64,000 bases of DNA, taken from NCBI GenBank assembly GCA_031371545.1, contig JANMJU010000026.1, forward strand, positions 1,337 to 65,336, in the 5' to 3' direction. Under the pieces are notes generated by a model. It had not been told where the DNA came from and did no database searches. It was given only the letters and a program-made list of their open reading frames with translations. Made by a program: the position numbers and the translations under genes. Source of the stretch: Chitinophagaceae bacterium. Lineage in GTDB: Bacteria; Bacteroidota; Bacteroidia; Chitinophagales; Chitinophagaceae. Shown here piece after piece: positions 25,094 through 36,319 of this stretch. Numbering within the stretch: the stretch's first letter is position 1; every line of letters starts with the position of its first letter.

Positions 25094-26338
25094 CTAACCA
25101 ATCGTTTCTTTAGCCACATCCAAATCAATTTCTTTTTCCCATTTAGCAATTACAATGGTTGCCACTGCATTTCCAATGATGTTGGTAATGGCTCTTCCTT
25201 CACTCATAAAACGGTCTATCCCTAAAATCAAAGCAATGGCTGCAACAGGGATATGGCCAACCGCAGGCAATGTGGCAGCCAGTGTAATAAAGCCACTTCC
25301 TGTAACGCCGGCTGCTCCTTTGGATGTAAGTAATAAAACCAGCAGTAATGAGACCTGGTGAGAAATATCTAACGGTGTGTTGGTGGCCTGTGCTAAAAAA
25401 ACTGCTGCCATGGTAAGATAAATAGCTGTGCCGTCCAGGTTAAATGAATAGCCCATTGGTATCACTAAACCAGTTACAGGTTCTGAGCAACCAGCCTTTT
25501 CCAATTTAGTGATAAGGCTTGGTAATGCGGCCTCAGATGAAGATGTTCCCAATACAATCAGGAGTTCTTCCTTAATATGTTTCAGCAGGCGAAAAATATT
25601 AAACCCAGATAATTTTAGTATGCCTCCCAAAATAATTAAAATAAAAAGCAGGCAGGTGATATAAAATGATCCCATTAACTGACCCAGTGAACTCAAAGAA
25701 CCCAAACCATATTTGCCAATAGTAAAAGCCATTGCTCCCAAAGCCCCAATAGGAGCCAATTTCATAATAATACGGATAATAGTAAACAGTGCGTCTTCCA
25801 GCGACTGGATACCTTTTAATAATGGATTTGCTTTCTCTTTAATTTTTGACAACGCAAATCCCATTAAAACAGCAAAGAAAAGAACCTGCAACAGGCTGTT
25901 ATTAGAAAGGGCGTTTACAATATTTTCTGGAATGATATTTAAAATAAAATCTAATGCTGTTTGGCTTTTGCTTTGAGTTATATAGCCTTCCACAGCTTTT
26001 GAATCAAGCGATGCAATCTCTATATTCATCCCAACACCGGGTTTCAAAATGTTGATTACAACAAGGCCGGTAACCAATGCCAGCGTAGTAACAATCTCAA
26101 AATAAATCAATGCTTTTAAACCAACCCTTCCTACTTTTTTTGTATCCTGCATACCGGCTATTCCGGTTACAATGGTGCAGAAGATGATAGGGCCAATCAT
26201 CATTTTGATCAGCCGGATAAATCCATCACCCAAAGGTTTTAACTGTGTTGCAAAATCTGGATTAAAGTGACCCAGCAGGATACCGGCAACTATTGCCAGC
26301 AACACCTGTATATAAAGGCTTTTAAATAATCTTAGCAT
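25094..26338 (-). CDS. dctA: Dicarboxylate/amino-acid:cation symporter (DAACS family)
   Basis: 414 aa with SSSEAALP and [14 protein letters not shown] motifs characteristic of DctA/GltP carriers. Confidence 0.85.
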
Positions 26339-26387
26339 AGCTGTTGGTTACCAAACACAAGTTAAGAAATATAAAAAGTCCGGTATT

Positions 26388-26933
26388 TTAATCTTCCTTA
26401 CTTCCTTTATCTCCTACAAACCATTGCTCTTTATTTTTAAACAATACATTAAAAGTAGTGAGAGATCCATAACAACGGGTGATGTACTGCTGTATGTTTA
26501 CCTTGTCTTCATCACTCAGTTTTTTATTGCTGTTGATATTTTGTTCCAGCACCCTCAGCCTGTCTCTCAGCATTACTACCTTATGGAAAAAATCTTCGAT
26601 AGGAATTTCTTTTGGTTTTTGAGTTTTATCGTAAGGTTGTAATAATAAAGACCCTCCTTTCCACTTGTCTCCCAAGGACACCACTTCCGAAAAGCCGGAC
26701 CATAAACGTAAAATTTTCAGCAATGACTTTTCCGTCTCTGAAACTGTTTCTATTTCTGCACTCACATTTTCTGGTATGATCTCATCGAGGCTGGTATCCG
26801 TTTTTTCTACTTCCTTTATACCATGATGAATAAAAGAGATCAGGTAAGTGGCGTATCGTATCCCCACTATTACCCCGGGGCCAAATTGTGTATGCTGCAG
26901 GCGGGTGCCAATTCCTAATGTAGTTTGTTCCAT
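26388..26933 (-). CDS. Hypothetical protein (181 aa)
   Basis: Long intact ORF; no motif recognised. Divergent from the NusG-paralog gene. Confidence 0.45.
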   Translation of the reverse strand: MEQTTLGIGTRLQHTQFGPGVIVGIRYATYLISFIHHGIKEVEKTDTSLDEIIPENVSAEIETVSETEKSLLKILRLWSGFSEVVSLGDKWKGGSLLLQPYDKTQKPKEIPIEDFFHKVVMLRDRLRVLEQNINSNKKLSDEDKVNIQQYITRCYGSLTTFNVLFKNKEQWFVGDKGSKED

Positions 26934-27177
26934 AAAATTATTTTTTCAAAAATAGAGTTTTTAGAAAAATGTTATGCCAGCTCAATTTAAAAGCGCCTGT
27001 AAAAATTATTTTTTTTCTATCAATTAATTCGTATGTTTGTGTTCCTACTATTTAATCCCGTTCCGGATATCCTTTTAAAAGCGCAACCAATCTTCTTCCT
27101 CATTTTCCTTTCGAAAAGCATTACACGTCTGATTGATATTTGAAAAACTGCAGTTTTTTCAACCAAAATTTTACACC

Positions 27178-27729
27178 ATGACACATAATTGGTATGCAGT
27201 TTATACAAAGCCATTAAAAGAAAGAAAAGTTTCTTCCATGCTTAATAAAAAGGGAATTGAAAGCTATTGCCCCGTCATTAGCTCCTGGGCAACAAAATCA
27301 AATAACAGGAAGCCTGTTTTTGAAACACTTTTTAATTCGTATGTATTTGTATACGTGGCAGAATCTGTAGTTGCATCTCTCCGGTTCATTCCCGGTGTCA
27401 TAAATGTTATTTACTGGAAAGCAAAGCCGGCCATAATAAATAAAGAGGAAATTGATATTGTTAAGCAATTAACAGCAAATTATAGCAATATAAGATTGGA
27501 AAAGTCTTTTGTTGATGTTGGCGGAACGGTAAAAGTGATTGATGAACCGGCAATTGCCTATAATGAAAATACAGTTTCAGTAAAATATAATACAGTTAAG
27601 GTTAATCTTCCTTCTCTTGGATTTACTATGATAGCTGAAAGGATGAAAAAGAAAGAAGAGTTGGTATTTGAAGAACGAAATACCCTTACTTCCTTTCCTC
27701 AAAAATTAAATGCATTGTTGTTTAATTAA
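27178..27729 (+). CDS. UpxY-type NusG paralog (NGN-domain transcription antiterminator)
   Basis: MTHNWYAVYTKPLKERKVSSMLNKKGIESYCPV is the NGN-domain opening seen in UpxY/RfaH-like proteins. It is not in a secE-nusG-rplK context, so it is not the housekeeping NusG. ATG 27178 is preferred over the track start 27133. Confidence 0.7.
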   Translation: MTHNWYAVYTKPLKERKVSSMLNKKGIESYCPVISSWATKSNNRKPVFETLFNSYVFVYVAESVVASLRFIPGVINVIYWKAKPAIINKEEIDIVKQLTANYSNIRLEKSFVDVGGTVKVIDEPAIAYNENTVSVKYNTVKVNLPSLGFTMIAERMKKKEELVFEERNTLTSFPQKLNALLFN

Positions 27730-28067
27730 AATAGAAAACTTATTAAAAATCAATTGTCCCGTTTTAAAATCATTGTTCTGGTATCAGACAAATATCCTGA
27801 TTGTTTTTAAATGTTCTATCAAACAAAAAATAGAACATCAAATAAATACCCGTGTAATCTTGCCTTAAACCAGGTAAAATTTTATACGTACCAATCCTTT
27901 GAACCACTCTTTTTAAAGACGCAATTCTCTGCAATATCTTATGCTTAAAAGCAATTGCTTTATAAAATTTTATCGGTAACACTTGTTGTTTTTATGATCC
28001 CCGTAACTACAAAACCAAAAGCTGATAAGATTTTAAAAGACATTTTTTATCACCGTAAAATACCTGT

Positions 28068-28346
28068 ATGGAAAAGATTTACCAATCGTACACAAAAACA
28101 ATACAAAATACTACCTACTATTTTGTAAAAAAATTCATGGTTTTCCCCGAACTCAAGGATCTACCACCAATTCTAGAAAGCTATGGTATGCACACCAACT
28201 TTGATAGATGCTGCGTAATTGCAGGGATTGAGGAAGATGTTGTAAAAAAACAACTCTTAGATGAAATGCATAGAAATGCTCACCAAGCAAAAGTGATTGA
28301 TTTAAGGGATATCAATTTTTTGAATCCGAAAGCCGCAAACCTGTAA
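28068..28346 (+). CDS. Hypothetical protein (92 aa) downstream of the NusG paralog
   Basis: Intact ORF on the same strand as its neighbours; no motif recognised. Confidence 0.4.
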   Translation: MEKIYQSYTKTIQNTTYYFVKKFMVFPELKDLPPILESYGMHTNFDRCCVIAGIEEDVVKKQLLDEMHRNAHQAKVIDLRDINFLNPKAANL

Positions 28347-29018
28347 TTAAAATCTTAGAGGGCAACAATACTCTGTACTACAGCAAAATTATATCGAAAC
28401 ATTTTCGATAATACAAAACAATAGACATCACTAATCATCTTTTTTAAACCTGACTAATGTTTAAAAAGCATACCCTTTCAATAAAGATAAATCTTCTTAA
28501 AAATGTATATTTTTTTATTTTGTCCTTAGGAAGCAATGAAGTTTTTCAGGCGATTAAACTCTTTTGTTGAGCTTGAAACAAAAAAACTTCCGCAAAAGGC
28601 AGAAAACGACTTTGCCAGGTAGGCAAAGAAACGTTGGTTAACAGTATTGTTTGTCATAATATTGGAATTTGAAAGTAAAATTAAATAATTGTGATTTTTT
28701 ATACAAGAGTGATTTTGCTAATTTTTTTGTACCGTATTTTCCGCAGTTTTTCATCTGTTCCAAGAACAACCCTCTGACGGATTTTTAATTACCCATCTGT
28801 TTTGACTTCCTTTTCCTCTCTTTTGTACACATTTTTGCAGGTAATTGGTATTTGTTAGATTTTATAAGTCATAAAGTTTTTTTATTATTAAACGCTTTTA
28901 TACTTTTACTTTAATCAATTTTTTGAAGCCTGTTTTTTAGAAACTCAGAATTATTTGCTTTTATATTATTGGTCAAACAACAATCAACCGTTAATAAATC
29001 CAGCATCATTTTTTATCT

Positions 29019-30188
29019 ATGCCAGATTTTCTTACCTCTTTAAATACATTGTCTGATCTTCCTTTTAAAGTGTGGGTACTGGTTCCTTCTGTGAAAAGCA
29101 ATGATGAAAATTTGGACTACTATTATGATTTCTCTCAAAGTATTTTAGAGTACACTAAAACTTTTGAAGTACTTAATTTACACTGGCAATGGCAACCAGT
29201 AACAATCCATGACTATAAGGAGATCATCAATACCATTCTTGAAGAAAAAAAATTAAAACAATTTTTTCCAATTGTATTCAATATTTGCGATGGTGATGAA
29301 ATAAATGGTGCCCCCGGTATATCAGTGGTAGAGTTATTACAAGAAAAAGGATTGATATATTCCGGTGCTGACAGTTTTTTTTATAACATCACCACTTCTA
29401 AAATCGCAATGAAAAAAGCTTTTGATAAAGCCGACATACCTACGCCTGAATGGGAGGCCATTCATAACAAAGACCATAACGTACAGGGAATTTTTGAAAG
29501 GCTGGGTACTCCAATAATTTTAAAGCCATCGGTATCTGGCGGAAGCATGGGGGTGGGTACAAAAAATGTAGTGTACAATGAGGGTGAATTAAAATCACTC
29601 ATCAATAATTTGTTTACCGGTTATCATGGATGGAACTTGGTGTCTGATGGCTTGATAGCTGAGTCGTTTATCCGGGGTGCAGAATATACTTGTCTGATTG
29701 TTGGTGATCATAACAAATCAGATGTGGCCTTTATTTATGATCCGGTTGAAAGAGTTTTTCATAAATCACTTCCCGAGGATGAAAAATTTTTAAGTTTCGA
29801 CCGATTATGGGAAATTTATGAAGATGAAACTGAAATGCCCAATGAAGAAAATTTTTATGAATATGGCCAGGTGGATTCTTCACGTGTAGATGTGGTAAAA
29901 CAAATTAGTTGGGATGCTTACAGCTCTCTAAAAGGAACTGGATATACAAGGGTGGATATAAGGAGAGATGACCGCACTGGCAAAATGTATGTACTGGAAG
30001 TAAATGCCCAATGTGGTATCAGCGAAAACGAGGATTATACTTCTATTGGAGCTATATTAAGATATAGTAAAAAAACATTTACAGAATTGGTGAAAGAAAT
30101 AATTATAAATGCTATTACTAGAAATAAAAATTCAATCTCCAAAGAAAAAAAAGTAAGCAGTTTAATACATGAGCCCAATCCAAAATAA
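29019..30188 (+). CDS. ATP-grasp ligase, D-Ala-D-Ala-ligase (Ddl) family-like
   Basis: Ddl-type N-terminal motif FPIVFNICDGDEINGAPGISVVELLQEKGLIYSG. ATP-grasp core ILKPSVSGGSMGV, AESFIRGAEYTCLIVG and YVLEVNAQCG. 389 aa. Confidence 0.8.
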   Translation: MPDFLTSLNTLSDLPFKVWVLVPSVKSNDENLDYYYDFSQSILEYTKTFEVLNLHWQWQPVTIHDYKEIINTILEEKKLKQFFPIVFNICDGDEINGAPGISVVELLQEKGLIYSGADSFFYNITTSKIAMKKAFDKADIPTPEWEAIHNKDHNVQGIFERLGTPIILKPSVSGGSMGVGTKNVVYNEGELKSLINNLFTGYHGWNLVSDGLIAESFIRGAEYTCLIVGDHNKSDVAFIYDPVERVFHKSLPEDEKFLSFDRLWEIYEDETEMPNEENFYEYGQVDSSRVDVVKQISWDAYSSLKGTGYTRVDIRRDDRTGKMYVLEVNAQCGISENEDYTSIGAILRYSKKTFTELVKEIIINAITRNKNSISKEKKVSSLIHEPNPK

Positions 30189-31671
30189 TGACAGTTTTTC
30201 TGCTATAACTATAGAATCTGCTGCTTCGCATAATTGGAGTACACTAAAAATATGTGTGCTGCTTCCCGATTATTCAACATCCGATGTTGACTACCAGTTG
30301 TATGATCCGCCAAGGAATTTATCTCACCTTATTCCAGAAGCATATTTTGAACATGTTTTTCTGAATAAATTGAGTACTTACAAACAGTTAAAAGAATTAA
30401 AGAAAAAGCAATTCGACATATTTGTAAATCTATGTGAGGGCTATCTTGAATGGGCAGTTCCTTCTATTGATGTTATCTATACATTGGAGATACTCAACCT
30501 GCCATTTACCGGCCCCACAACTCTGTTATATGATCCACCAAAAGAACTGATGAAATATGTGGCATACACTGAAGGTGTTAGAACTCCTGCTTATACCCTT
30601 ATAGAAAATGAAGAAAATATTGAATCTGAATGCAAGCTGCTACAATATCCATTGTTTGTAAAACCTCATAAAGCGGGGGATAGCCTGGGAGTGGATGAGA
30701 AAAGTCTGGTAAATAACCTTTTTGAATTAAAGGAAAAAATACGTTCTGTTATTGATGAATACAGTCCTTTGCTTGTAGAAGAGTATATCGAGGGAAGGGA
30801 GTTTACGATAATGCTTGCTGCTGACGCCGGTAATAAATCTGTGACAACCTTCCGGCCTGTTGAGTATATTTTTCCTGAAGGAAACCAGTTTAAAACTTAT
30901 GCACTGAAAACTTCAGAACTTCATCCAAACGCAAATATTCCTGTTATGGATGAGCAACTTAATAAAAGATTAAAAACTGCAGCCACAAAAATATTCACCG
31001 CATTTAAAGGGGCTGGTTATGCCCGTTTAGACTTCAGAATGAATGCTGAAGGAGAGCTATTTTTTCTTGAAATAAACTTTACATGTTCTGTATTCTATAC
31101 TAAAGGTTATGAAGGAAGTGCAGATTATATACTACAGCATGATGGATTTGGGCAGGCAAATTTTTTAAAAAATATTATTGCTGAGGGTATTGAAAGATAT
31201 CGCCTAATGCAAAAAAAATATTTTATGAAGGGTAATTCAATAGCTGGTTATGGCATTTATGCCACCAATAATATTGCAGCTAATGAATTGATATTCAAAG
31301 GAGAGGAAATGGCTCAGCGGATAGTTACCAAGAGTCATGTGGAGAAAAACTGGGATGATAACCAAAAAGAAATATTTAGAAAATACGCTTATCCTCTAAG
31401 CAAAGAGGTATTTTTGCTGTGGGATAACAATCCGTATGAATGGGCTCCACAAAATCATAGTTGTTCGCCAAATACGGCATTTGATGGTTTAAATATAAAA
31501 GCTATAGGCTACATTAAAAATGGCGATGAATTAACTTTAGATTATGCGTCTTTTTTGGATGAAAATATGGAGCCTTTTAAATGCAAATGTGGCTCTCCCA
31601 ACTGTCGTGGCTTAATTACCGGAATTACTAACAACTCGGTAACCGAAAGAGAAAAAGAAGCCACTACTTAA
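30169..31671 (+). CDS. Fusion protein: Ddl-type ATP-grasp ligase plus C-terminal SET-domain methyltransferase
   Basis: ATP-grasp part: FVKPHKAGDSLGV, VEEYIEGREFTIML, FFLEINFTCS. SET part from about nt 31201: GYGIYAT, NHSCSPN (31453-31473), ELTLDY and post-SET CKCGSPNCRG (31582-31611). Overlaps the upstream ligase gene by 20 nt. Confidence 0.82.
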   Translation: MSPIQNNDSFSAITIESAASHNWSTLKICVLLPDYSTSDVDYQLYDPPRNLSHLIPEAYFEHVFLNKLSTYKQLKELKKKQFDIFVNLCEGYLEWAVPSIDVIYTLEILNLPFTGPTTLLYDPPKELMKYVAYTEGVRTPAYTLIENEENIESECKLLQYPLFVKPHKAGDSLGVDEKSLVNNLFELKEKIRSVIDEYSPLLVEEYIEGREFTIMLAADAGNKSVTTFRPVEYIFPEGNQFKTYALKTSELHPNANIPVMDEQLNKRLKTAATKIFTAFKGAGYARLDFRMNAEGELFFLEINFTCSVFYTKGYEGSADYILQHDGFGQANFLKNIIAEGIERYRLMQKKYFMKGNSIAGYGIYATNNIAANELIFKGEEMAQRIVTKSHVEKNWDDNQKEIFRKYAYPLSKEVFLLWDNNPYEWAPQNHSCSPNTAFDGLNIKAIGYIKNGDELTLDYASFLDENMEPFKCKCGSPNCRGLITGITNNSVTEREKEATT

Positions 31672-31776
31672 ACTAACCCAACGTCTTTCGGTCTAACTAC
31701 TCCATTAAATGATTGGCTTACCGGTTTATCCGGGATAGAAATTGTATGATTTATTAAATGATTCAAAAGAAGATTT

Positions 31777-32718
31777 ATGTCAAGATTTAATGTACTACGA
31801 ACATTGATAGTAAAACATAAGTATCAATTAAGTTTTACCTATTTTTTATTTACGCTGGAAACGATGGGCAGCTTGATGCGATTTTATTTTTTCGGGGAGG
31901 CTATCAATGATTTAATAAAAGGCAGCTATCATGGATTAATTGTACTAACCATAGCGCATATAATTTATTTAATTGTTGGTACAGCGAGGCATATTTATGA
32001 CACCAGAACATATACAGCTATTTACACCTCTTTAGTAACAAAACTTTTAAGCAGGCGTTTTGAAAAAATTGAATTGTCCAAGCTGAGTGCTCACTCTACA
32101 TTGGCAAGGGAATTCATTGATTTTTTAGAACACGACCTGGTGTATGTAATAGAAGCAACTTATAATTTGTTGGGCTCTTTAATTATTCTTTTTTTCTATG
32201 ATAAAATGATTGTTGGTATCTGTTTAGCTATTTTGGCACCCGTGCTGTTGGTGAGTTATTGGTATGGTAAAAAGATGAATAAGCTCAACAAGCAAAAAAA
32301 TGATGAATTAGAAAAGCAGGTTGATGTTATTGGTACGGGCAATAAAAAAATGATTTATCAGCATTACAACAATTTAAGAAACTGGCAAATAAAAATTTCT
32401 AATAAAGAAGCTTTCAATTTCGGTTTTATGGAAGTAATGGTATTACTTGTAATTACAGTTTCTTTAGTATTATCTAAAAGCATGCACAATCCTGCATTGC
32501 TTGCTGGCAGCCTGTTTGGTATTTACAGTTACATTCTAAAATTTGCCAGTGGTCTTGATACAATTCCTTATACAATACAACGACTTTCTTCATTAAATGA
32601 TATTTCAAGAAGAATTGAGATACAGAAGGAAGACATACCAAAAGAAAAGAAGAAGGGAGAGATTAGCGTACACCCTTATAGTATTATTTCAGCGAAAGAA
32701 ATTAAAATATCTGCGTAA
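31777..32718 (+). CDS. ABC-exporter-type six-helix transmembrane domain protein lacking a nucleotide-binding domain
   Basis: 313 aa with type-I ABC exporter TMD architecture: two clusters of long helices separated by a charged intracellular loop (KKMNKLNKQKNDELEKQVD). It ends where an NBD would start. No Walker A, signature motif or NBD ORF follows. Confidence 0.6.
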   Translation: MSRFNVLRTLIVKHKYQLSFTYFLFTLETMGSLMRFYFFGEAINDLIKGSYHGLIVLTIAHIIYLIVGTARHIYDTRTYTAIYTSLVTKLLSRRFEKIELSKLSAHSTLAREFIDFLEHDLVYVIEATYNLLGSLIILFFYDKMIVGICLAILAPVLLVSYWYGKKMNKLNKQKNDELEKQVDVIGTGNKKMIYQHYNNLRNWQIKISNKEAFNFGFMEVMVLLVITVSLVLSKSMHNPALLAGSLFGIYSYILKFASGLDTIPYTIQRLSSLNDISRRIEIQKEDIPKEKKKGEISVHPYSIISAKEIKISA

Positions 32719-33002
32719 ACTAATTGTATTATTAATTAAGCTTGTCCCAATTAAATATTTTCTTTATATCTATAACAACAATATTTCTCTATTTCCTTTG
32801 GTGTACCAACCTGCAAAAAAGTACTAATTACCGATCATCCCAACAATTTACCATCTACAAAATCAGCAATTTTTGTTTTATTGATAGCTAATTTTTGTAA
32901 AACCCAATACCGGCAAGGTTTTTACTCAAAACAAAGTTAACAAACACTGCCTATTACCATTATTAAATTAGTACTTTGTTTCGCATAGTACTAATTATTT
33001 TA

Positions 33003-33010
33003 TATCTTTG
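33003..33010 (+). promoter_or_regulatory. Bacteroidota -7 promoter element (TAnnTTTG) for the micro-protein genes
   Basis: TATCTTTG lies 42 nt upstream of ATG 33052, directly after an 8-bp inverted repeat. Confidence 0.45.
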
Positions 33011-33051
33011 TTTTATCAAAGTAATAAATACAATAATTAAAACTTACAATC

Positions 33052-33240
33052 ATGAAAAAGACATTAAACAGCTCATTTGTCCATTTAACTCAAAATGAGC
33101 TTAAAAATTTAACAAGCGAAGTAAAAGAAACTATTGCTGTAGCGTTTTTCCGCAAACCAGAAAACAAGATTTTTACTGCGGCCAATCTTTGGAATATACA
33201 ACGGCAGACTAAAACAAGAATGCAAAGAAGGTTTATTTAA
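33052..33240 (+). CDS. 62-aa basic micro-protein, paralog 1 (candidate precursor/substrate peptide)
   Basis: MKKTLNSSFVHLTQNELKNLTSEVKETIAVAFFRKPENKIFTAANLWNIQRQTKTRMQRRFI. Paralogous to the next ORF: 29 identical positions in my hand alignment. Confidence 0.6.
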   Translation: MKKTLNSSFVHLTQNELKNLTSEVKETIAVAFFRKPENKIFTAANLWNIQRQTKTRMQRRFI

Positions 33241-33269
33241 AAACATTATCAATCTAAAAACTTATAATC

Positions 33270-33455
33270 ATGAAAAAGACAACTAATTGCATATTTGCTA
33301 AACTTAGCAGCAGCCAAATAGAAAACTTAACCAATGTAGTTAAAGAAACGATTGCTTTTGAAACTGGTATAGCAGCAATCAAAACATTTACCTCTGCAGA
33401 CTTGCGAAATATTCAAAAGCAGTCAAGGGGCAGATGGCAAAGGAAATTTTTTTAA
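33270..33455 (+). CDS. 61-aa basic micro-protein, paralog 2 (candidate precursor/substrate peptide)
   Basis: MKKTTNCIFAKLSSSQIENLTNVVKETIAFETGIAAIKTFTSADLRNIQKQSRGRWQRKFF. The translation-initiation context is duplicated (AAAACTTATAATCATGAAAAAGACA versus AAAACTTACAATCATGAAAAAGACA). Confidence 0.6.
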   Translation: MKKTTNCIFAKLSSSQIENLTNVVKETIAFETGIAAIKTFTSADLRNIQKQSRGRWQRKFF

Positions 33456-33485
33456 AGGCAGGAAATAAAAAAAAATTGACACATT

Positions 33486-33866
33486 TTATGAGCGATAAAA
33501 CTCCTCCAACATTCCAAAATAATTGTGATTCCAGCCTTCTGTCATGTTTATGTATTCTTCATCCGGGATATTGGTATGTGTTAGTTCAACGGAGGTTCCG
33601 TGTTTATGTGGATGTAATTTGATTGTTACAATGGAGGCTTCTTCCTGATCACCAAAATACCACTCTTGAACAATCATTTTACCAGTTTCAAAAGCCAAAT
33701 TTCTTCCAGAAATGCTACCTTCCCATAATGAGAATTCGCTGCCAATCTCTGTACTCATTTCAGCAGGATCACCGCTCCAGAGTTGAATTGTAGCCGGATT
33801 AGTTAATGCAATAAAAATATCTTCGGGGCTTGCCGGGATGATATAATATTTTTTAAAGTCCTTCAT
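33486..33866 (-). CDS. SRPBCC superfamily (AHSA1/START-like) protein
   Basis: 126 aa. PEDIFIALTNPATIQLWSG and VELTHTNIPDE are typical of Aha1-domain proteins. Confidence 0.65.
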   Translation of the reverse strand: MKDFKKYYIIPASPEDIFIALTNPATIQLWSGDPAEMSTEIGSEFSLWEGSISGRNLAFETGKMIVQEWYFGDQEEASIVTIKLHPHKHGTSVELTHTNIPDEEYINMTEGWNHNYFGMLEEFYRS

Positions 33867-33881
33867 TTTTAGGTGATATAT

Positions 33882-34397
33882 TTATCTGCCAAAATCATCT
33901 TGTATTCTTACAATATCATCTTCATTGCTGGGATTATCTGTATCGGTGTGCTGCCATATTTCAGCCACAATACCCCAACCGTCTAAACCAATGAGCCGGT
34001 GCCGTTCCCCCTGTTTCAACTGTATGATATCTCCAATTGACAAATGGTTTGTATTCTCCTCAACATCCGTATCACTTGTTACTACTCCAGCCGTGCCTCC
34101 AATAAGTTTCCATATTTCTGCACGCCGGTGATGATACTGCCAGCTTAATCTTTTATTAGGTCCAACAATCAATACCTTGGGGCTTAATTTACCAGATATT
34201 ATTAGTTTTTCTTTTGTGATGTGTGGGAAATACAGTGAAATAAATCTTTCAGCCTGCGATTCATCTAAAACAAAAAACCCCCCCCAAGGCCTTGTGTCAT
34301 CCTGCTGATTTACATTTAATTGCTGTTGATTTAGGTACTCTTCAACCTTTTCAAAAACCAATACTTTTGGGGTATCCTCTGAAAAATTTAAAGTCAT
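33882..34397 (-). CDS. Cupin domain protein (type II phosphomannose-isomerase C-terminal-like)
   Basis: RPWGGFFVL, SWQYHHRRAEIW and GERHRL cupin motifs. Confidence 0.7.
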   Translation of the reverse strand: MTLNFSEDTPKVLVFEKVEEYLNQQQLNVNQQDDTRPWGGFFVLDESQAERFISLYFPHITKEKLIISGKLSPKVLIVGPNKRLSWQYHHRRAEIWKLIGGTAGVVTSDTDVEENTNHLSIGDIIQLKQGERHRLIGLDGWGIVAEIWQHTDTDNPSNEDDIVRIQDDFGR

Positions 34398-34450
34398 AAA
34401 GTTTATTTGATTCTGTTATTGCTGAATATTTAATTAATTGTCCACTACAA

Positions 34451-36319
34451 TTATCTTCCCATAAAAACCATCAATATCTGCACGTCACTTGGATTAACGC
34501 CTGATATCCTTGAAGCCTGTCCTAGCGTACGTGGCCTTATTTTAGTAAATTTTTGCCTGGCTTCATTGCTCAGAGATACCAGTTTATCATAACCAAAGTT
34601 GTCTGGTATCAGCAAGTCTTCTAACTGGCTCATCTTAGTAACAAGCTCTTTTTCTTTTTGAATATATGTTTCATACTTTGTTTGAATTTCCACCTGCTCC
34701 AGTATCTCAGGCTTCATGCTCATTATGGCTTCTTTTATTTTAGGTACATGATTTATCATATCTGCCAAACCAATATTAGGTCTTAATAATAAAGAAAGTA
34801 CTTTTTGGCGATTTACTAACGGAGAAGATTGTACCCTATTAAGCAGTGGGTTTATTTCTTCAGGCTCTATAGAAAGTGAGCTTAAAATCACTCTTGCTTT
34901 TTCTACCATCTCTATTTTTAATTTTACTCTTTCCATCCTCTCCTGAGATGCCAATCCAATCCGGTAACTTTTTTCTGTTAATCTTATATCGGCATTATCC
35001 TGCCGTAATAAAGTTCTGAACTCTGCCCTGCTTGTGAACATCCGGTAGGGTTCATCAGTTCCCTTATTAATTAAATCATCTATTAATACCCCAATGTATG
35101 CTTCACTCCTCTTTAATATTAGTGGGTCTAAGTCTTTTACTTTTTGATGGGCATTAATCCCTGCCATTAATCCCTGGCAGGCTGCTTCTTCATAACCCGT
35201 AGTGCCATTTATCTGTCCAGCAAAGAAGAGGTTATCAATTAGTTTGGTTTCTAAGCTAAATTTTAGCTGGGTTGGTGGAAAATAATCATACTCAATTGCA
35301 TAACCCGGCCTGAACATTTTGCAGTTCTCAAATCCAGGAACCAATTTGAGTGCTTTATATTGAACCTCTTCCGGCAAGGAAGATGAAAATCCATTTACAT
35401 AAATTTCAACCGTATTAAACCCTTCCGGTTCTACAAATAATTGATGCCTATCCCTTTCTGCAAATCGGTTGATCTTATCTTCTATACTTGGGCAATAGCG
35501 TGGACCAGTGCCCTTAATCCGACCCTGAAACATAGGACTTTTTTCAAAACCAGTTTTAAGTATTTCATGCACTTCACTACTGGTGTAGGTAATCCAACAG
35601 CTCTTTTGTTGCAAAGGGGTAATTTTCTTTGTATCTAGATAACTAAATCCTATTATTTCATCATCCCCTTTTTGTTCCTCCATTTTACTGTAATCCAGAC
35701 TTCTGCCGTCTATTCTTGGCGGAGTTCCCGTTTTTAAACGGTTACTTTCAAAACCAAGACCAATCAATTGCTCTGTAATACCCTTTACGGCTCTCTCAGC
35801 CATTCTCCCTCCACCTATTTTTTTCTCTCCAATATGAATTACGCCGTTTAAAAAAGTACCATTGGTTAAAACTACTGCCTTAGCTTTTATTTCATGCCCT
35901 AACCCCGTGTGGACGCCACATACTTTACCATCTTTTACTAATAAACCAACCACAGTATCCTGATAAAAGTCCACATTAGGAGTATTTTCAAGCATCTCCC
36001 GCCATTTTGAGGCAAATAACATCCGGTCGCTCTGAACCCTTGGACTCCACATTGCCGGCCCCTTACTCCTGTTGAGCATCCTAAACTGGATCATGCTTTC
36101 ATCCGTAACAATTCCACTATAACCCCCTAATGCATCTATTTCTCTTACAATTTGCCCTTTTGCAATCCCGCCCATCGCTGGGTTACAGCTCATTTGGGCA
36201 ATTGTCTGCATATTCATTGTAATCAAAAGCACCTTACTACCCAAATTGGCTGCAGAAGTTGCGGCTTCACAACCAGCATGACCAGCACCCACTACAATTA
36301 TATCATACTCATTAAACAT
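34451..36319 (-). CDS. mnmG: tRNA uridine-5-carboxymethylaminomethyl(34) synthesis enzyme MnmG (GidA)
   Basis: 622 aa. YDIIVVGAGHAGCEAA FAD motif, SCNPAMGG and GQINGTTGYEEAACQG. Confidence 0.95.
   Translation of the reverse strand: MFNEYDIIVVGAGHAGCEAATSAANLGSKVLLITMNMQTIAQMSCNPAMGGIAKGQIVREIDALGGYSGIVTDESMIQFRMLNRSKGPAMWSPRVQSDRMLFASKWREMLENTPNVDFYQDTVVGLLVKDGKVCGVHTGLGHEIKAKAVVLTNGTFLNGVIHIGEKKIGGGRMAERAVKGITEQLIGLGFESNRLKTGTPPRIDGRSLDYSKMEEQKGDDEIIGFSYLDTKKITPLQQKSCWITYTSSEVHEILKTGFEKSPMFQGRIKGTGPRYCPSIEDKINRFAERDRHQLFVEPEGFNTVEIYVNGFSSSLPEEVQYKALKLVPGFENCKMFRPGYAIEYDYFPPTQLKFSLETKLIDNLFFAGQINGTTGYEEAACQGLMAGINAHQKVKDLDPLILKRSEAYIGVLIDDLINKGTDEPYRMFTSRAEFRTLLRQDNADIRLTEKSYRIGLASQERMERVKLKIEMVEKARVILSSLSIEPEEINPLLNRVQSSPLVNRQKVLSLLLRPNIGLADMINHVPKIKEAIMSMKPEILEQVEIQTKYETYIQKEKELVTKMSQLEDLLIPDNFGYDKLVSLSNEARQKFTKIRPRTLGQASRISGVNPSDVQILMVFMGR

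What the first reader, a model, noticed from the sequence alone, without database searches (positions are those of the whole stretch)
30169..31671. ATP-grasp ligase fused to a complete SET methyltransferase domain with post-SET cysteine cluster
Residues from about 345 to 500 contain the canonical SET signatures: GYGIYAT, NHSCSPN (nt 31453-31473), ELTLDY and the post-SET CKCGSPNCRG (nt 31582-31611). They are fused in one ORF to a Ddl-type ATP-grasp domain. SET domains are established protein-lysine methyltransferases and are uncommon in bacteria. Fusion to an amide-bond-forming ligase implies that both act on one substrate, a peptide or protein rather than a cell-wall precursor. A second stand-alone ligase is translationally coupled upstream.
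Basis: partly seen in the sequence, partly recalled or inferred. Interest (0 to 1): 0.65.

Follow-up and report, generated by a model that had tools for sequence, protein, structure and literature searches.

The report
ATP-grasp ligase fused to SET methyltransferase
A soil bacterium of the family Chitinophagaceae carries a real, strongly conserved gene that joins an amide-bond-forming ligase to a SET methyltransferase; thousands of relatives exist and none has been characterised, and the evidence leans towards it building a small methylated metabolite rather than modifying the neighbouring small peptides.

Summary
ORF 30169-31671 (500 aa) is a Ddl-type ATP-grasp ligase fused to a complete SET domain with a post-SET cysteine cluster. 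A second Ddl-like ligase overlaps its start by 20 nt, and a membrane-domain-only ABC protein follows it.

The fusion is not an artefact. All 120 listed homologues have the same architecture, at least 236 clusters at 50% identity exist, and the AlphaFold2 model is confident (pLDDT 92, pTM 0.89).

Most relatives carry a second small SET protein (SET-B), either as a separate gene or fused on. This window lacks it. Fusions in several orders link both ligases and both SET domains, so they form one functional module.

The P1/P2 peptides accompany the operon in only 4 of 32 loci, and a P1 homologue occurs elsewhere without it. The ligase looks like small-molecule Ddl enzymes. The closest solved relative of both SET domains is BurB, which methylates free methionine.

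My best reading (confidence about 0.45) is that the module ligates and methylates an amino-acid-derived small product that is handed to the membrane protein. Modification of a protein is a serious rival. The substrate is unknown.

The parts
29019..30188 (+). grasp1: stand-alone Ddl-like ATP-grasp ligase (389 aa), first gene of the core operon. Its last 20 nt overlap the next gene.
   Evidence: Pfam Dala_Dala_lig_C 61.7 bits. NCBIfam Ddl models score 84-89 bits, far below the cut-offs of 243-246. Best solved relatives are Ddl enzymes. It lies directly upstream of the fusion gene in every related genome locus with enough upstream sequence. A grasp1-type domain is fused to graspN in P0165.
30169..31203 (+). 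graspN: the N-terminal Ddl-type ATP-grasp ligase domain of the fusion protein (aa 1-345). The first ~25 aa are a poorly conserved extension.
   Evidence: Pfam aa 146-303, 83.7 bits. The motifs VKPhkaGdSlGV, EEYIeGrEfT, YARlDf and LEiN align with the same motifs of solved Ddl enzymes. K165, S172, E204, E205, E211, K247, R286, D288 and N303 are at least 90% conserved in 68 diverse homologues. Foldseek top hits are Ddl, TMt 0.75-0.81 against PDB and 0.84 for the Bodo saltans virus Ddl.
31150..31209 (+). Long linker helix (aa 328-347) joining the ligase and SET domains.
   Evidence: Helix 328-347 in the AlphaFold2 model. A whole-protein pTM of 0.89 indicates a confidently fixed arrangement of the two domains.
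31246..31545 (+). SET-A: the SET methyltransferase domain core (aa 360-459), with GYGIYAT, NHSCSPN and ELTLDY.
   Evidence: Pfam SET 36.7 bits against a gathering score of 22.4. H430, C432 and Y459 are at least 90% conserved. The PDB sequence search finds BurB (E 6.5e-10) and then KMT2A/SETD2. Foldseek matches viral SET proteins over 116-138 columns.
31582..31611 (+). Post-SET cysteine cluster CKCGSPNCRG (C472, C474, C479). Together with C432 of NHSC these are the four cysteines that bind zinc in post-SET domains.
   Evidence: Read directly from the sequence. C472, C474, C479 and R480 are invariant in 28 diverse homologues.
31777..32718 (+). ABC_membrane_3 protein (313 aa): the six-helix membrane domain of an ABC exporter type, with no ATPase domain. 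Third gene of the core operon.
   Evidence: Pfam PF13748, 146.4 bits. Directly downstream of the fusion gene in 25 of 31 related genome loci. All 120 best homologues are membrane-domain-only proteins of ~311 aa. ABC-exporter membrane proteins of other families sit beside the fusion gene in unrelated loci L035, L036 and L061.

Best explanation
The gene encodes a bifunctional enzyme of a conserved multi-part pathway. The pathway has two Ddl-like ATP-grasp ligases (grasp1 and the N-terminal half of this protein). It has one SET methyltransferase here and two in most relatives. It usually also has an ABC-type membrane protein without an ATPase.

Proposed mechanism:
1. The ligase domains activate a carboxylate of an amino-acid-like building block as an acyl phosphate.
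2. They join it to an amine, making an amide-linked di- or oligo-amide.
3. The SET domain, held rigidly against the ligase, uses SAM to methylate a nucleophilic group of the same intermediate or product. That group is most likely an amine (giving a methylated or quaternary ammonium) and less likely a thioether.
4. The membrane protein takes the product for export or for placement in the envelope.

What is shown: the domain identities, intact catalytic motifs in all three enzymes, a rigid two-domain model, and conservation of the module with repeated fusion of its parts.

What is inferred: that the substrate is a small molecule rather than a protein, the chemistry of the methyl acceptor, and export. 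The identity of the product is unknown.
For: 1. Functional coupling. In 31 Chitinophagaceae genome loci the order is SET-B, grasp1, graspN-SET-A, ABC_membrane_3. Among 64 full-length representatives of 50%-identity clusters the architectures include graspN-SETA (38), graspN-SETA-SETB (8), SETB-graspN, g1-graspN and graspN-SETA-SETB-graspN. SET-B is adjacent or fused in unrelated loci L032, L035, L036, L038, L039 (Streptomyces), L041, L043, L044 and L057.

2. All catalytic motifs are intact and conserved. AlphaFold2 gives pLDDT 92.2 and pTM 0.89.

3. A small-molecule substrate is suggested by the whole ligase, which superposes on Ddl (TMt 0.75-0.84). Both SET-A and SET-B have BurB as their best solved relative (E 6.5e-10 and 1.5e-11, against about 1e-6 for histone methyltransferases; 48% identity over 58 aa and 37% over 83 aa). 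BurB methylates free methionine (PMC12542666).

4. The three-domain protein often stands alone, with no conserved partner or target gene beside it (L032, L038, L040). This fits common metabolites as substrates.

5. In L036 the operon also holds an AlaDH-family dehydrogenase, SET-B and an AdoMet-decarboxylase-family enzyme. In L041 an AdoMet_dc gene is convergent with the fusion gene.

6. An exporter-type membrane protein recurs in three unrelated contexts.
Against: - No substrate has been identified, and the neighbourhoods of distant homologues are heterogeneous.
- The canonical chemistry of SET domains is methylation of lysine in proteins. The similarity to BurB covers mainly the C-terminal half that all SET domains share.
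- One homologue lies in a phage genome (L042). A protein-modifying role seems as natural there as a metabolic one.
- The membrane protein has no ATPase, so transport is unproven. It is also absent from 6 of 31 related loci.
- This window lacks SET-B, so its pathway may differ from the majority form.
- The KamA-ligase-ligase-GNAT operons that hint at (beta-)lysine-type substrates are only 21-30% identical to the window ligases.
Confidence: 0.45

Rival explanations
1. Protein-modifying enzyme. The SET domain methylates lysine(s) of a conserved cellular (or, in phage, host or phage) protein. The ATP-grasp domain(s) add amino acids to a carboxylate of the same protein. This would be a bacterial counterpart of RimK tailing combined with lysine methylation, or of eukaryotic TTLL12.
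For: Methylation of protein lysine is the established activity of SET domains, and all canonical motifs are present. The gene is as conserved as the housekeeping gene mnmG across the family (70-77% against 68-77%), which fits a conserved protein target. A phage-borne copy exists (L042). cNMP-signalling genes lie beside homologues in four unrelated loci, which may point to a regulatory role. Eukaryotes have a SET-like plus TTL fusion, TTLL12 (PMC3520985).
Against: The ligase is Ddl-like throughout, not RimK- or TTL-like. The top 50 PDB fold matches are all Ddl or Van ligases, and TTL-family proteins appear only as weak hits in the viral library (rank 9 onwards, TMt 0.23-0.48). No candidate target gene is conserved next to it. 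The closest characterised SET relative acts on a free amino acid. An exporter-type membrane partner is hard to fit with an intracellular protein target.
Confidence: 0.3
2. Polymer synthase. The two ATP-grasp ligases build a non-ribosomal polyamide (cyanophycin-like or poly-amino-acid). The SET domain(s) methylate its lysine-type side chains, and the membrane protein exports it.
For: The operon has two ligases plus one or two SET domains plus an exporter-like membrane domain. grasp1 gives weak hits to cyanophycin synthetase models (E 5e-7). The L036 transporter resembles the cyanophycin-associated ABC transporter model among others. SET domains prefer lysine in a peptide backbone.
Against: Many organisms have only one ligase domain (three-domain stand-alone proteins). 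No Mur-ligase-like or primer-binding domains are present. The cyanophycin hits are far below the cut-offs.
Confidence: 0.1
3. Maturation of the ribosomal peptides P1 and P2. The small ORFs at 33052-33240 and 33270-33455 would be precursors that are methylated on lysine and ligated by the two ATP-grasp enzymes, then exported by the membrane protein.
For: P1 and P2 lie 330 nt downstream of the membrane-protein gene on the same strand. They form a real, conserved family in tandem arrays with a basic C-terminus containing lysine. Arrays also lie within 1-3 kb of the fusion gene in L001, L011, L019 and L126.
Against: Only 4 of 32 loci with the operon have such peptides, and no other conserved small ORF replaces them. 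In L011 and L019 genes on the opposite strand separate them from the operon. The peptide family is very small (10 clusters). In L125 a homologue sits beside a sigma-54 two-component system and HlyD/MacB-FtsX exporters with no ligase-SET gene within 10 kb. The ligases are Ddl-type, not the RimK-type of known peptide maturases.
Confidence: 0.05
4. Peptidoglycan-precursor ligase paralogue. The ATP-grasp domains make D-Ala-D-X for the cell wall, and the SET domain is an unrelated passenger.
For: The best sequence and fold matches are D-Ala-D-Ala ligases.
Against: Scores are far below every Ddl/Van equivalog cut-off. The N-terminal substrate region does not align with Ddl, and Thr248 replaces the Tyr after the conserved Lys. 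The recurrent fusions with two SET types argue for a dedicated pathway. No mur, ddl or van genes are adjacent.
Confidence: 0.03

Closest known systems
BurB / MSMT (SET-domain methionine S-methyltransferase of the DMSP methylation pathway; PDB 9l4t; PMC12542666)
   Same: It is a small bacterial SET domain with NHSC-type and post-SET CxCx4C motifs. It is the best solved sequence relative of both SET-A (48% identity over 58 aa) and the SET-B proteins of related operons (37% over 83 aa, including the substrate-binding strand). It shows that this kind of SET domain can methylate a free amino acid.
   Different: BurB is a stand-alone 172-aa protein in a cluster with a decarboxylase, an aminotransferase and a dehydrogenase. 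Here the SET domain is fused to a ligase, its N-terminal half has a different ~45-residue insert rich in conserved aromatic residues, and no Bur-type partner genes are in the window. Methionine as substrate is not implied.
D-alanine-D-alanine ligase (Ddl/Van family ATP-grasp enzymes)
   Same: Same three-subdomain fold (TMt up to 0.84), and the same ATP, Mg and acyl-phosphate motifs.
   Different: It fails all NCBIfam Ddl and Van cut-offs. The N-terminal substrate region is not alignable. It is fused to a SET domain, paired with a second divergent ligase, and not in a cell-wall gene context.
Ngg of NAGGN biosynthesis (GNAT acetyltransferase fused to an ATP-grasp dipeptide ligase; from my own knowledge, not tested here)
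   Same: An amide-forming ATP-grasp ligase is fused to an enzyme that caps an amino group, and the two together make a small modified dipeptide.
   Different: The tailoring domain is a GNAT acetyltransferase, not SET. The ATP-grasp clade is different. No sequence comparison was made here.
TTLL12 (eukaryotic SET-like plus tubulin-tyrosine-ligase-like protein; PMC3520985)
   Same: It is the only described protein type that combines a SET-related domain and an ATP-grasp ligase domain in one chain.
   Different: The domain order is the opposite. Its ligase is TTL-type, not Ddl-type. According to that paper's abstract it catalyses neither histone methylation nor tubulin tyrosination. There is no evidence of common descent.
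Graspetide (microviridin-type) ATP-grasp peptide maturases
   Same: ATP-grasp enzymes, often two in tandem, next to small peptide genes and an ABC transporter.
   Different: Those ligases are RimK-like and always accompany their precursor genes. Here the ligases are Ddl-like and the nearby peptides are not conserved with the operon.

Membership tests
SET-domain methyltransferases (Pfam PF00856, class V) | Profile match above the curated threshold | tested here: met
   36.7 bits against a gathering score of 22.4, aa 360-459, covering profile positions 1-104 of 105.
SET-domain methyltransferases (Pfam PF00856, class V) | SAM-binding and catalytic motifs: GxG, NHSC, and the Tyr of ELxxDY | tested here: met
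   GYGIYAT, NHSCSPN and ELTLDY are present. H430, C432 and Y459 are at least 90% conserved in 68 homologues.
SET-domain methyltransferases (Pfam PF00856, class V) | Post-SET CxCx4C, which with the Cys of NHSC forms the zinc site | tested here: met
   C432 plus C472, C474 and C479. The last three are invariant in 28 diverse homologues. Zinc binding itself was not tested.
SET-domain methyltransferases (Pfam PF00856, class V) | SET fold | tested here: met
   The AlphaFold2 model has pLDDT 92. Foldseek matches SET proteins of CroV, tailed phages and others over 116-138 columns with TMt 0.5-0.64. The PDB list was filled by Ddl hits, so no PDB SET ranking by fold was obtained.
Protein-lysine N-methyltransferase (the name NCBI gives homologues) | Methylates lysine in a protein substrate | not testable with these tools
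   The name is transferred from the domain. The closest characterised relative methylates free methionine (PMC12542666).
D-alanine-D-alanine ligase (EC 6.3.2.4) | ATP-grasp fold with the Ddl ATP/Mg motifs | tested here: met
D-alanine-D-alanine ligase (EC 6.3.2.4) | Score above the NCBIfam subfamily or equivalog cut-offs | tested here: not met
   TIGR01205 gives 93.9 bits against 245.65, and NF002378 gives 85.2 against 243. All Van models are far below their cut-offs.
D-alanine-D-alanine ligase (EC 6.3.2.4) | Substrate-site residues: the N-terminal D-Ala1 site, and the Tyr after the catalytic Lys (E15 and Y216 of E. coli DdlB, from my own knowledge) | tested here: not met
   Alignments to solved Ddl begin only at aa 102. 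'yalKT' aligns with 'ynaKY', so Thr248 replaces the Tyr. The family consensus at that position is Trp.
BurB/MSMT-type small-molecule SET methyltransferase | Specific sequence relationship to BurB | tested here: inconclusive
   BurB is the best PDB hit (E 6.5e-10, against 1e-6 for KMT2A), but only over the C-terminal 58 aa for SET-A. The match is longer for SET-B of relatives.
BurB/MSMT-type small-molecule SET methyltransferase | Stand-alone ~170-aa protein clustered with SMM decarboxylase, aminotransferase and dehydrogenase genes | tested here: not met
   SET-A is fused to a ligase, and no such genes lie at 24-38 kb of the window. One distant operon (L036) has an AdoMet_dc-family gene and an AlaDH-family gene.
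Graspetide / microviridin-type RiPP maturase | Precursor peptide genes conserved alongside the ligase | tested here: not met
   P1/P2-like ORFs occur in 4 of 32 loci. A P1 homologue occurs without the ligase in L125.
Graspetide / microviridin-type RiPP maturase | RimK-type ATP-grasp ligase | tested here: not met
   The best Pfam family is Dala_Dala_lig_C. RimK scores 16.7 bits for grasp1, below the cut-off of 21, and gives no hit for the fusion protein.
ABC exporter (for ORF 31777-32718) | Six-helix exporter membrane domain | tested here: met
   PF13748, 146.4 bits.
ABC exporter (for ORF 31777-32718) | Nucleotide-binding (ATPase) domain, fused or encoded adjacently | tested here: not met
   The protein is 313 aa of membrane domain plus a short tail. 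No ABC_tran hit was found among the 10 neighbouring ORFs scanned. All 120 best homologues are also membrane-domain-only.

The most novel reading that the evidence does not exclude
The graspN-SET-A (plus SET-B, plus grasp1) module is a self-contained synthetase for a so far unrecognised class of methylated (quaternary ammonium or sulfonium) amide-linked metabolites. It would be made from common amino-acid or polyamine precursors. It is spread across many bacterial lineages, with isolated copies in a phage-like contig and in eukaryote-derived datasets that have not been checked for contamination. In Chitinophagaceae it is a core, exported or envelope-associated product. This would extend SET-domain chemistry well beyond protein lysines.
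Probability: 0.35. Interest if true: 0.75.

Novelty: new variant of a known kind. Interest (0 to 1): 0.55.

Why it matters
SET domains are known almost entirely as methyltransferases of protein lysine, above all on histones. BurB was the first clear small-molecule exception.

Here a large, strongly conserved family hard-wires one or two BurB-like SET domains to Ddl-like amide ligases. It comprises at least 236 clusters at 50% identity. In Chitinophagaceae it is as conserved as mnmG. If it makes a metabolite, it defines a new biosynthetic logic (ligate, then methylate) and probably a new compound class in abundant soil and freshwater bacteria. If it modifies proteins, it would be a combined tailing and methylation system in bacteria.

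Either result would replace the current database name 'protein-lysine N-methyltransferase' with a tested function. A culturable host exists (Ferruginibacter sp. SUN106), so the question can be tested directly.

Tried and rejected
- A single-sequence AlphaFold2 run was useless (pLDDT 31). It was replaced by a run with a 68-sequence alignment.
- The Foldseek PDB list was saturated by Ddl chains, so it gave no fold-level ranking of SET structures. The viral library was used instead to confirm the SET fold.
It was repeated with 7 sequences.
- The IMG/VR scan found no viral relatives, so the phage copy in L042 is an isolated case.
- Rfam at E <= 0.1 found no riboswitch or other RNA family at 26000-34500, including the 670-nt gap upstream of grasp1. 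The promoter and terminator scans were no better than shuffled sequence.
- Six literature searches found no paper describing a bacterial ATP-grasp-SET fusion. The Iyer et al. 2009 amidoligase paper (PMC3268129), which may mention it, is not held.
- PHROGs gave nothing for the window proteins.
- The apparent recurrence of 'ABC transporter' among neighbours in the metagenome set (cluster 1) partly reflects generic ATPase similarity, including MacB systems. It was therefore not counted as evidence beyond L035, L036 and L061.
- The KamA-ligase-ligase-GNAT operons looked like a clue to lysine or beta-lysine substrates. Their ligases are only 21-30% identical to the window's, so I kept this as a lead only.
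- I considered whether orf92, the UpxY-like gene and P1/P2 belong to the operon. I rejected this because they are confined to one subclade and are separated from the operon by opposite-strand genes in relatives.
Full report
OBSERVATION

The ORF 30169..31671 (+) is real and encodes 500 aa. Pfam finds Dala_Dala_lig_C at aa 146-303 (83.7 bits) and SET at aa 360-459 (36.7 bits against a gathering score of 22.4).

The upstream ORF 29019..30188 (389 aa, 'grasp1') is a second Ddl-like ATP-grasp protein. Its stop lies 20 nt inside the fusion ORF. Downstream, ORF 31777..32718 is an ABC_membrane_3 protein (PF13748, 146 bits) with no ATPase domain.

ATG 30169 is the only sensible start codon. The first 25 residues are weakly conserved and have low confidence in the model.

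NOT AN ARTEFACT, AND NOT RARE

A search of 5.8 billion proteins returned 3,590 hits. The best 120 (66-94% identity) all carry both domains in one chain. They come from many independent assemblies, mostly Ferruginibacter and other Chitinophagaceae. NCBI already calls them 'SET domain-containing protein-lysine N-methyltransferase' and IMG calls them 'D-alanine-D-alanine ligase-like'.

Against 1.84 billion representatives at 50% identity, 236 clusters score E <= 1e-30. The window itself is about 93-97% identical at protein level to a Chitinophagaceae MAG (L001).

STRUCTURE AND CATALYTIC COMPETENCE

With a 68-sequence alignment, AlphaFold2 gives mean pLDDT 92.2 and pTM 0.89. A long helix (aa 328-347) joins the two domains. 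The high pTM means their relative position is predicted with confidence.

Foldseek puts D-Ala-D-Ala ligases on top, with TMt 0.75-0.81 in PDB and 0.84 for the Bodo saltans virus Ddl. It also matches viral SET proteins over 116-138 columns.

HMMER alignments to solved Ddl enzymes line up VKP..G.S.GV, EEYI.G.E.T, YARxD and LExN. K165, S172, E204, E205, E211, K247, R286, D288, N303, H430, C432, Y459, C472, C474 and C479 are each at least 90% conserved in diverse homologues. Both halves therefore look active.

It is not a true Ddl. NCBIfam scores (94 and 85 bits) are far below the cut-offs (246 and 243). The N-terminal substrate region does not align, and Thr248 (Trp in the family consensus) replaces the Tyr after the catalytic Lys.

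THE REAL UNIT IS LARGER THAN THE FUSION

In 31 related genome loci the conserved order is a stand-alone SET protein of ~167 aa (SET-B), then grasp1, then graspN-SET-A, then ABC_membrane_3.
- SET-B is intact in 23 loci.
- The membrane protein is present in 25.
- The window and its closest relatives (L001, L002, L126) lack SET-B. tblastn finds no second SET anywhere in the 64-kb window.
- In its place is a 670-nt AT-rich gap.

Among 64 full-length representatives of 50%-identity clusters I found these architectures:
- graspN-SETA (38);
- graspN-SETA-SETB (8);
- SETB-graspN (2);
- a g1-graspN fusion;
- graspN-SETA-SETB-graspN;
- a 1,415-aa Mesostigma protein with four SET-B-like domains, a ligase and SET-A.

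SET-B is adjacent or fused in unrelated loci, including a Streptomyces contig. These repeated fusions in different orders are strong evidence that both ligases and both SET types serve one pathway.

Within Chitinophagaceae the fusion protein is as conserved as mnmG (70-77% against 68-77%).

WHAT IS THE SUBSTRATE?

They belong to a conserved ~62-aa family with the motif F[TS]xxDLWNIQRQ...QRR, found in tandem arrays of 2-4. But several points argue against them as substrates:
- They accompany the operon in only 4 of 32 loci, and no other conserved small ORF takes their place.
- In L011 and L019 opposite-strand genes separate them from the operon.
- The family has only 10 clusters in the whole database.
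- In another Chitinophagaceae genome a homologue lies beside a sigma-54 two-component system and HlyD/MacB-FtsX exporters, with no ligase-SET gene within 10 kb.

P1/P2 therefore look like an independent peptide system that happens to be a neighbour in one lineage.

Three lines of evidence point towards a small molecule.
1. The ligase is Ddl-like over its whole length, not RimK- or TTL-like.
2. The best solved sequence relative of both SET-A and SET-B is BurB (E 6.5e-10 and 1.5e-11, against about 1e-6 for KMT2A; 48% identity over 58 aa and 37% over 83 aa). BurB and its Streptomyces homologue MSMT methylate free methionine (PMC12542666).
3. The three-domain protein frequently stands alone. One distant operon adds an AlaDH-family dehydrogenase and an AdoMet-decarboxylase-family enzyme.

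Exporter-type ABC membrane proteins recur beside the fusion in three unrelated settings. This suggests that the product leaves the cytoplasm.

Three points argue the other way.
1. The similarity to BurB is concentrated in the C-terminal half that all SET domains share.
2. Distant neighbourhoods are heterogeneous. They include a phage-like contig (L042) and four loci with cNMP-signalling genes.
3. The window's membrane protein has no ATPase.

MOST LIKELY MECHANISM (confidence about 0.45)

The two ligases activate carboxylates as acyl phosphates and form amide bond(s) between amino-acid-like units. The SET domain is rigidly attached to the second ligase. It methylates an amine (less likely a thioether) of the intermediate or product. 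The membrane protein then receives the product.

The domain identities, motif integrity and module coupling are shown. The small-molecule nature of the substrate, the methyl acceptor and export are inferred.

The main rival (about 0.3) is combined tailing and lysine methylation of a conserved protein. Minor rivals are a methylated polyamide polymer (0.1), P1/P2 maturation (0.05) and a cell-wall Ddl paralogue (0.03).

COMPARISON WITH WHAT IS KNOWN

The closest known relatives or analogues are:
- BurB/MSMT, for the SET domain;
- Ddl, for the ligase;
- Ngg of NAGGN synthesis, a GNAT-ATP-grasp fusion that makes a capped dipeptide, as a functional analogue (from my own knowledge);
- eukaryotic TTLL12, a SET-like plus TTL protein with the opposite domain order and a different ligase clade. 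According to its paper's abstract it catalyses neither histone methylation nor tubulin tyrosination (PMC3520985).

Six searches of the paper library found no description of the bacterial fusion. One possibly relevant paper is not held.

VERDICT

The architecture is already present in databases under generic names, but I found no paper that tests its function. I rate it a new variant of a known kind, with interest 0.55. The highest-value follow-up is heterologous expression with labelled-methyl metabolomics, together with in vitro substrate panels.

Noticed in passing
window 33052-33240 and 33270-33455 (+): Two paralogous small ORFs of 61-62 aa (P1, P2) belong to a tiny conserved family (10 clusters in 5.8 billion proteins). 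Members occur in tandem arrays of 2-4 copies. They share an MKK... N-terminus, an ENLTxVVxETLA block and a basic C-terminal motif F[TS]xxDLWNIQRQ..R.QRR. In another Chitinophagaceae genome (L125) a homologue lies between a sigma-54 two-component system and HlyD/MacB-FtsX exporter genes. They may be a secreted or bacteriocin-like peptide system of unknown function.
   Followed up: yes
window 28526-28657 (-), within a conserved block at about 28520-28750: In the 670-nt gap between orf92 and grasp1, a block of ~230 nt is 76% identical to L002 while its flanks are not alignable. The block holds an intact 43-aa ORF on the minus strand (MTNNTVNQRFFAYLAKSF...KEFNRLKNFIAS, 84% aa identity in L002) and two hairpins followed by T runs on that strand. 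It is found only in the clade that lacks SET-B (W, L001, L002). Whether it is a small protein or an RNA is undecided.
   Followed up: partly
window 28068-28346 (+): A 92-aa ORF (orf92; MEKIYQSYTK...YYFVKKF...ESYGMHT) has no Pfam or NCBIfam hit. It is conserved at 47-55% identity in seven more distant related loci (L002, L008, L011, L019, L020, L023 and others) and at 94% in L001. It is always upstream of the operon, but in most loci an opposite-strand DUF3820-like gene separates it from the operon.
   Followed up: partly
window 27133-27729 (+): A NusG/UpxY-family antiterminator-like gene (NF033644, 84 bits, below the cut-off of 100) lies upstream of orf92 and the ligase operon. This arrangement is seen only in the window's clade (L001, L126). 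Whether it controls the operon is unknown.
   Followed up: no
related loci L003-L030 (for example L022:4336-4839): Most relatives start the operon with a stand-alone BurB-like SET protein of ~167 aa (SET-B; motifs INHSCEPN, FFYPSTEWDM, CNC...C, INGASHL). The window's clade has lost it from this position, and no copy exists in the 64-kb window.
   Followed up: yes
metagenome loci L106, L107, L108 (for example L108:6488-10304): Compact operons encode a lysine 2,3-aminomutase homologue, two tandem Ddl-like ligases (graspN-like and g1-like, 21-30% identical to the window's) and a GNAT acetyltransferase. This has the same layout as the window module, with acetylation in place of methylation, and hints at beta-lysine-type substrates.
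   Followed up: partly
loci L032, L036, L061, L123: Cyclic-nucleotide signalling genes lie directly beside ligase-SET genes in four unrelated contigs. They include cNMP-binding proteins, adenylate/guanylate cyclase-like proteins and a phosphodiesterase. This could be chance in cyclase-rich phyla or a sign of regulation.
   Followed up: no
locus L042:7793-9238: One ligase-SET homologue (P0158) sits in a phage-like contig between ParB-like genes and the small and large terminase subunits, near a DNA polymerase A gene. A scan of IMG/VR found no other viral copy.
   Followed up: partly
window 26388-26933 (-): A 181-aa ORF with no Pfam or NCBIfam hit is conserved in L001 and L126. It lies between a sodium:dicarboxylate symporter-family gene (PF00375 SDF on the L126 copy) and the UpxY-like gene.
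   Followed up: no
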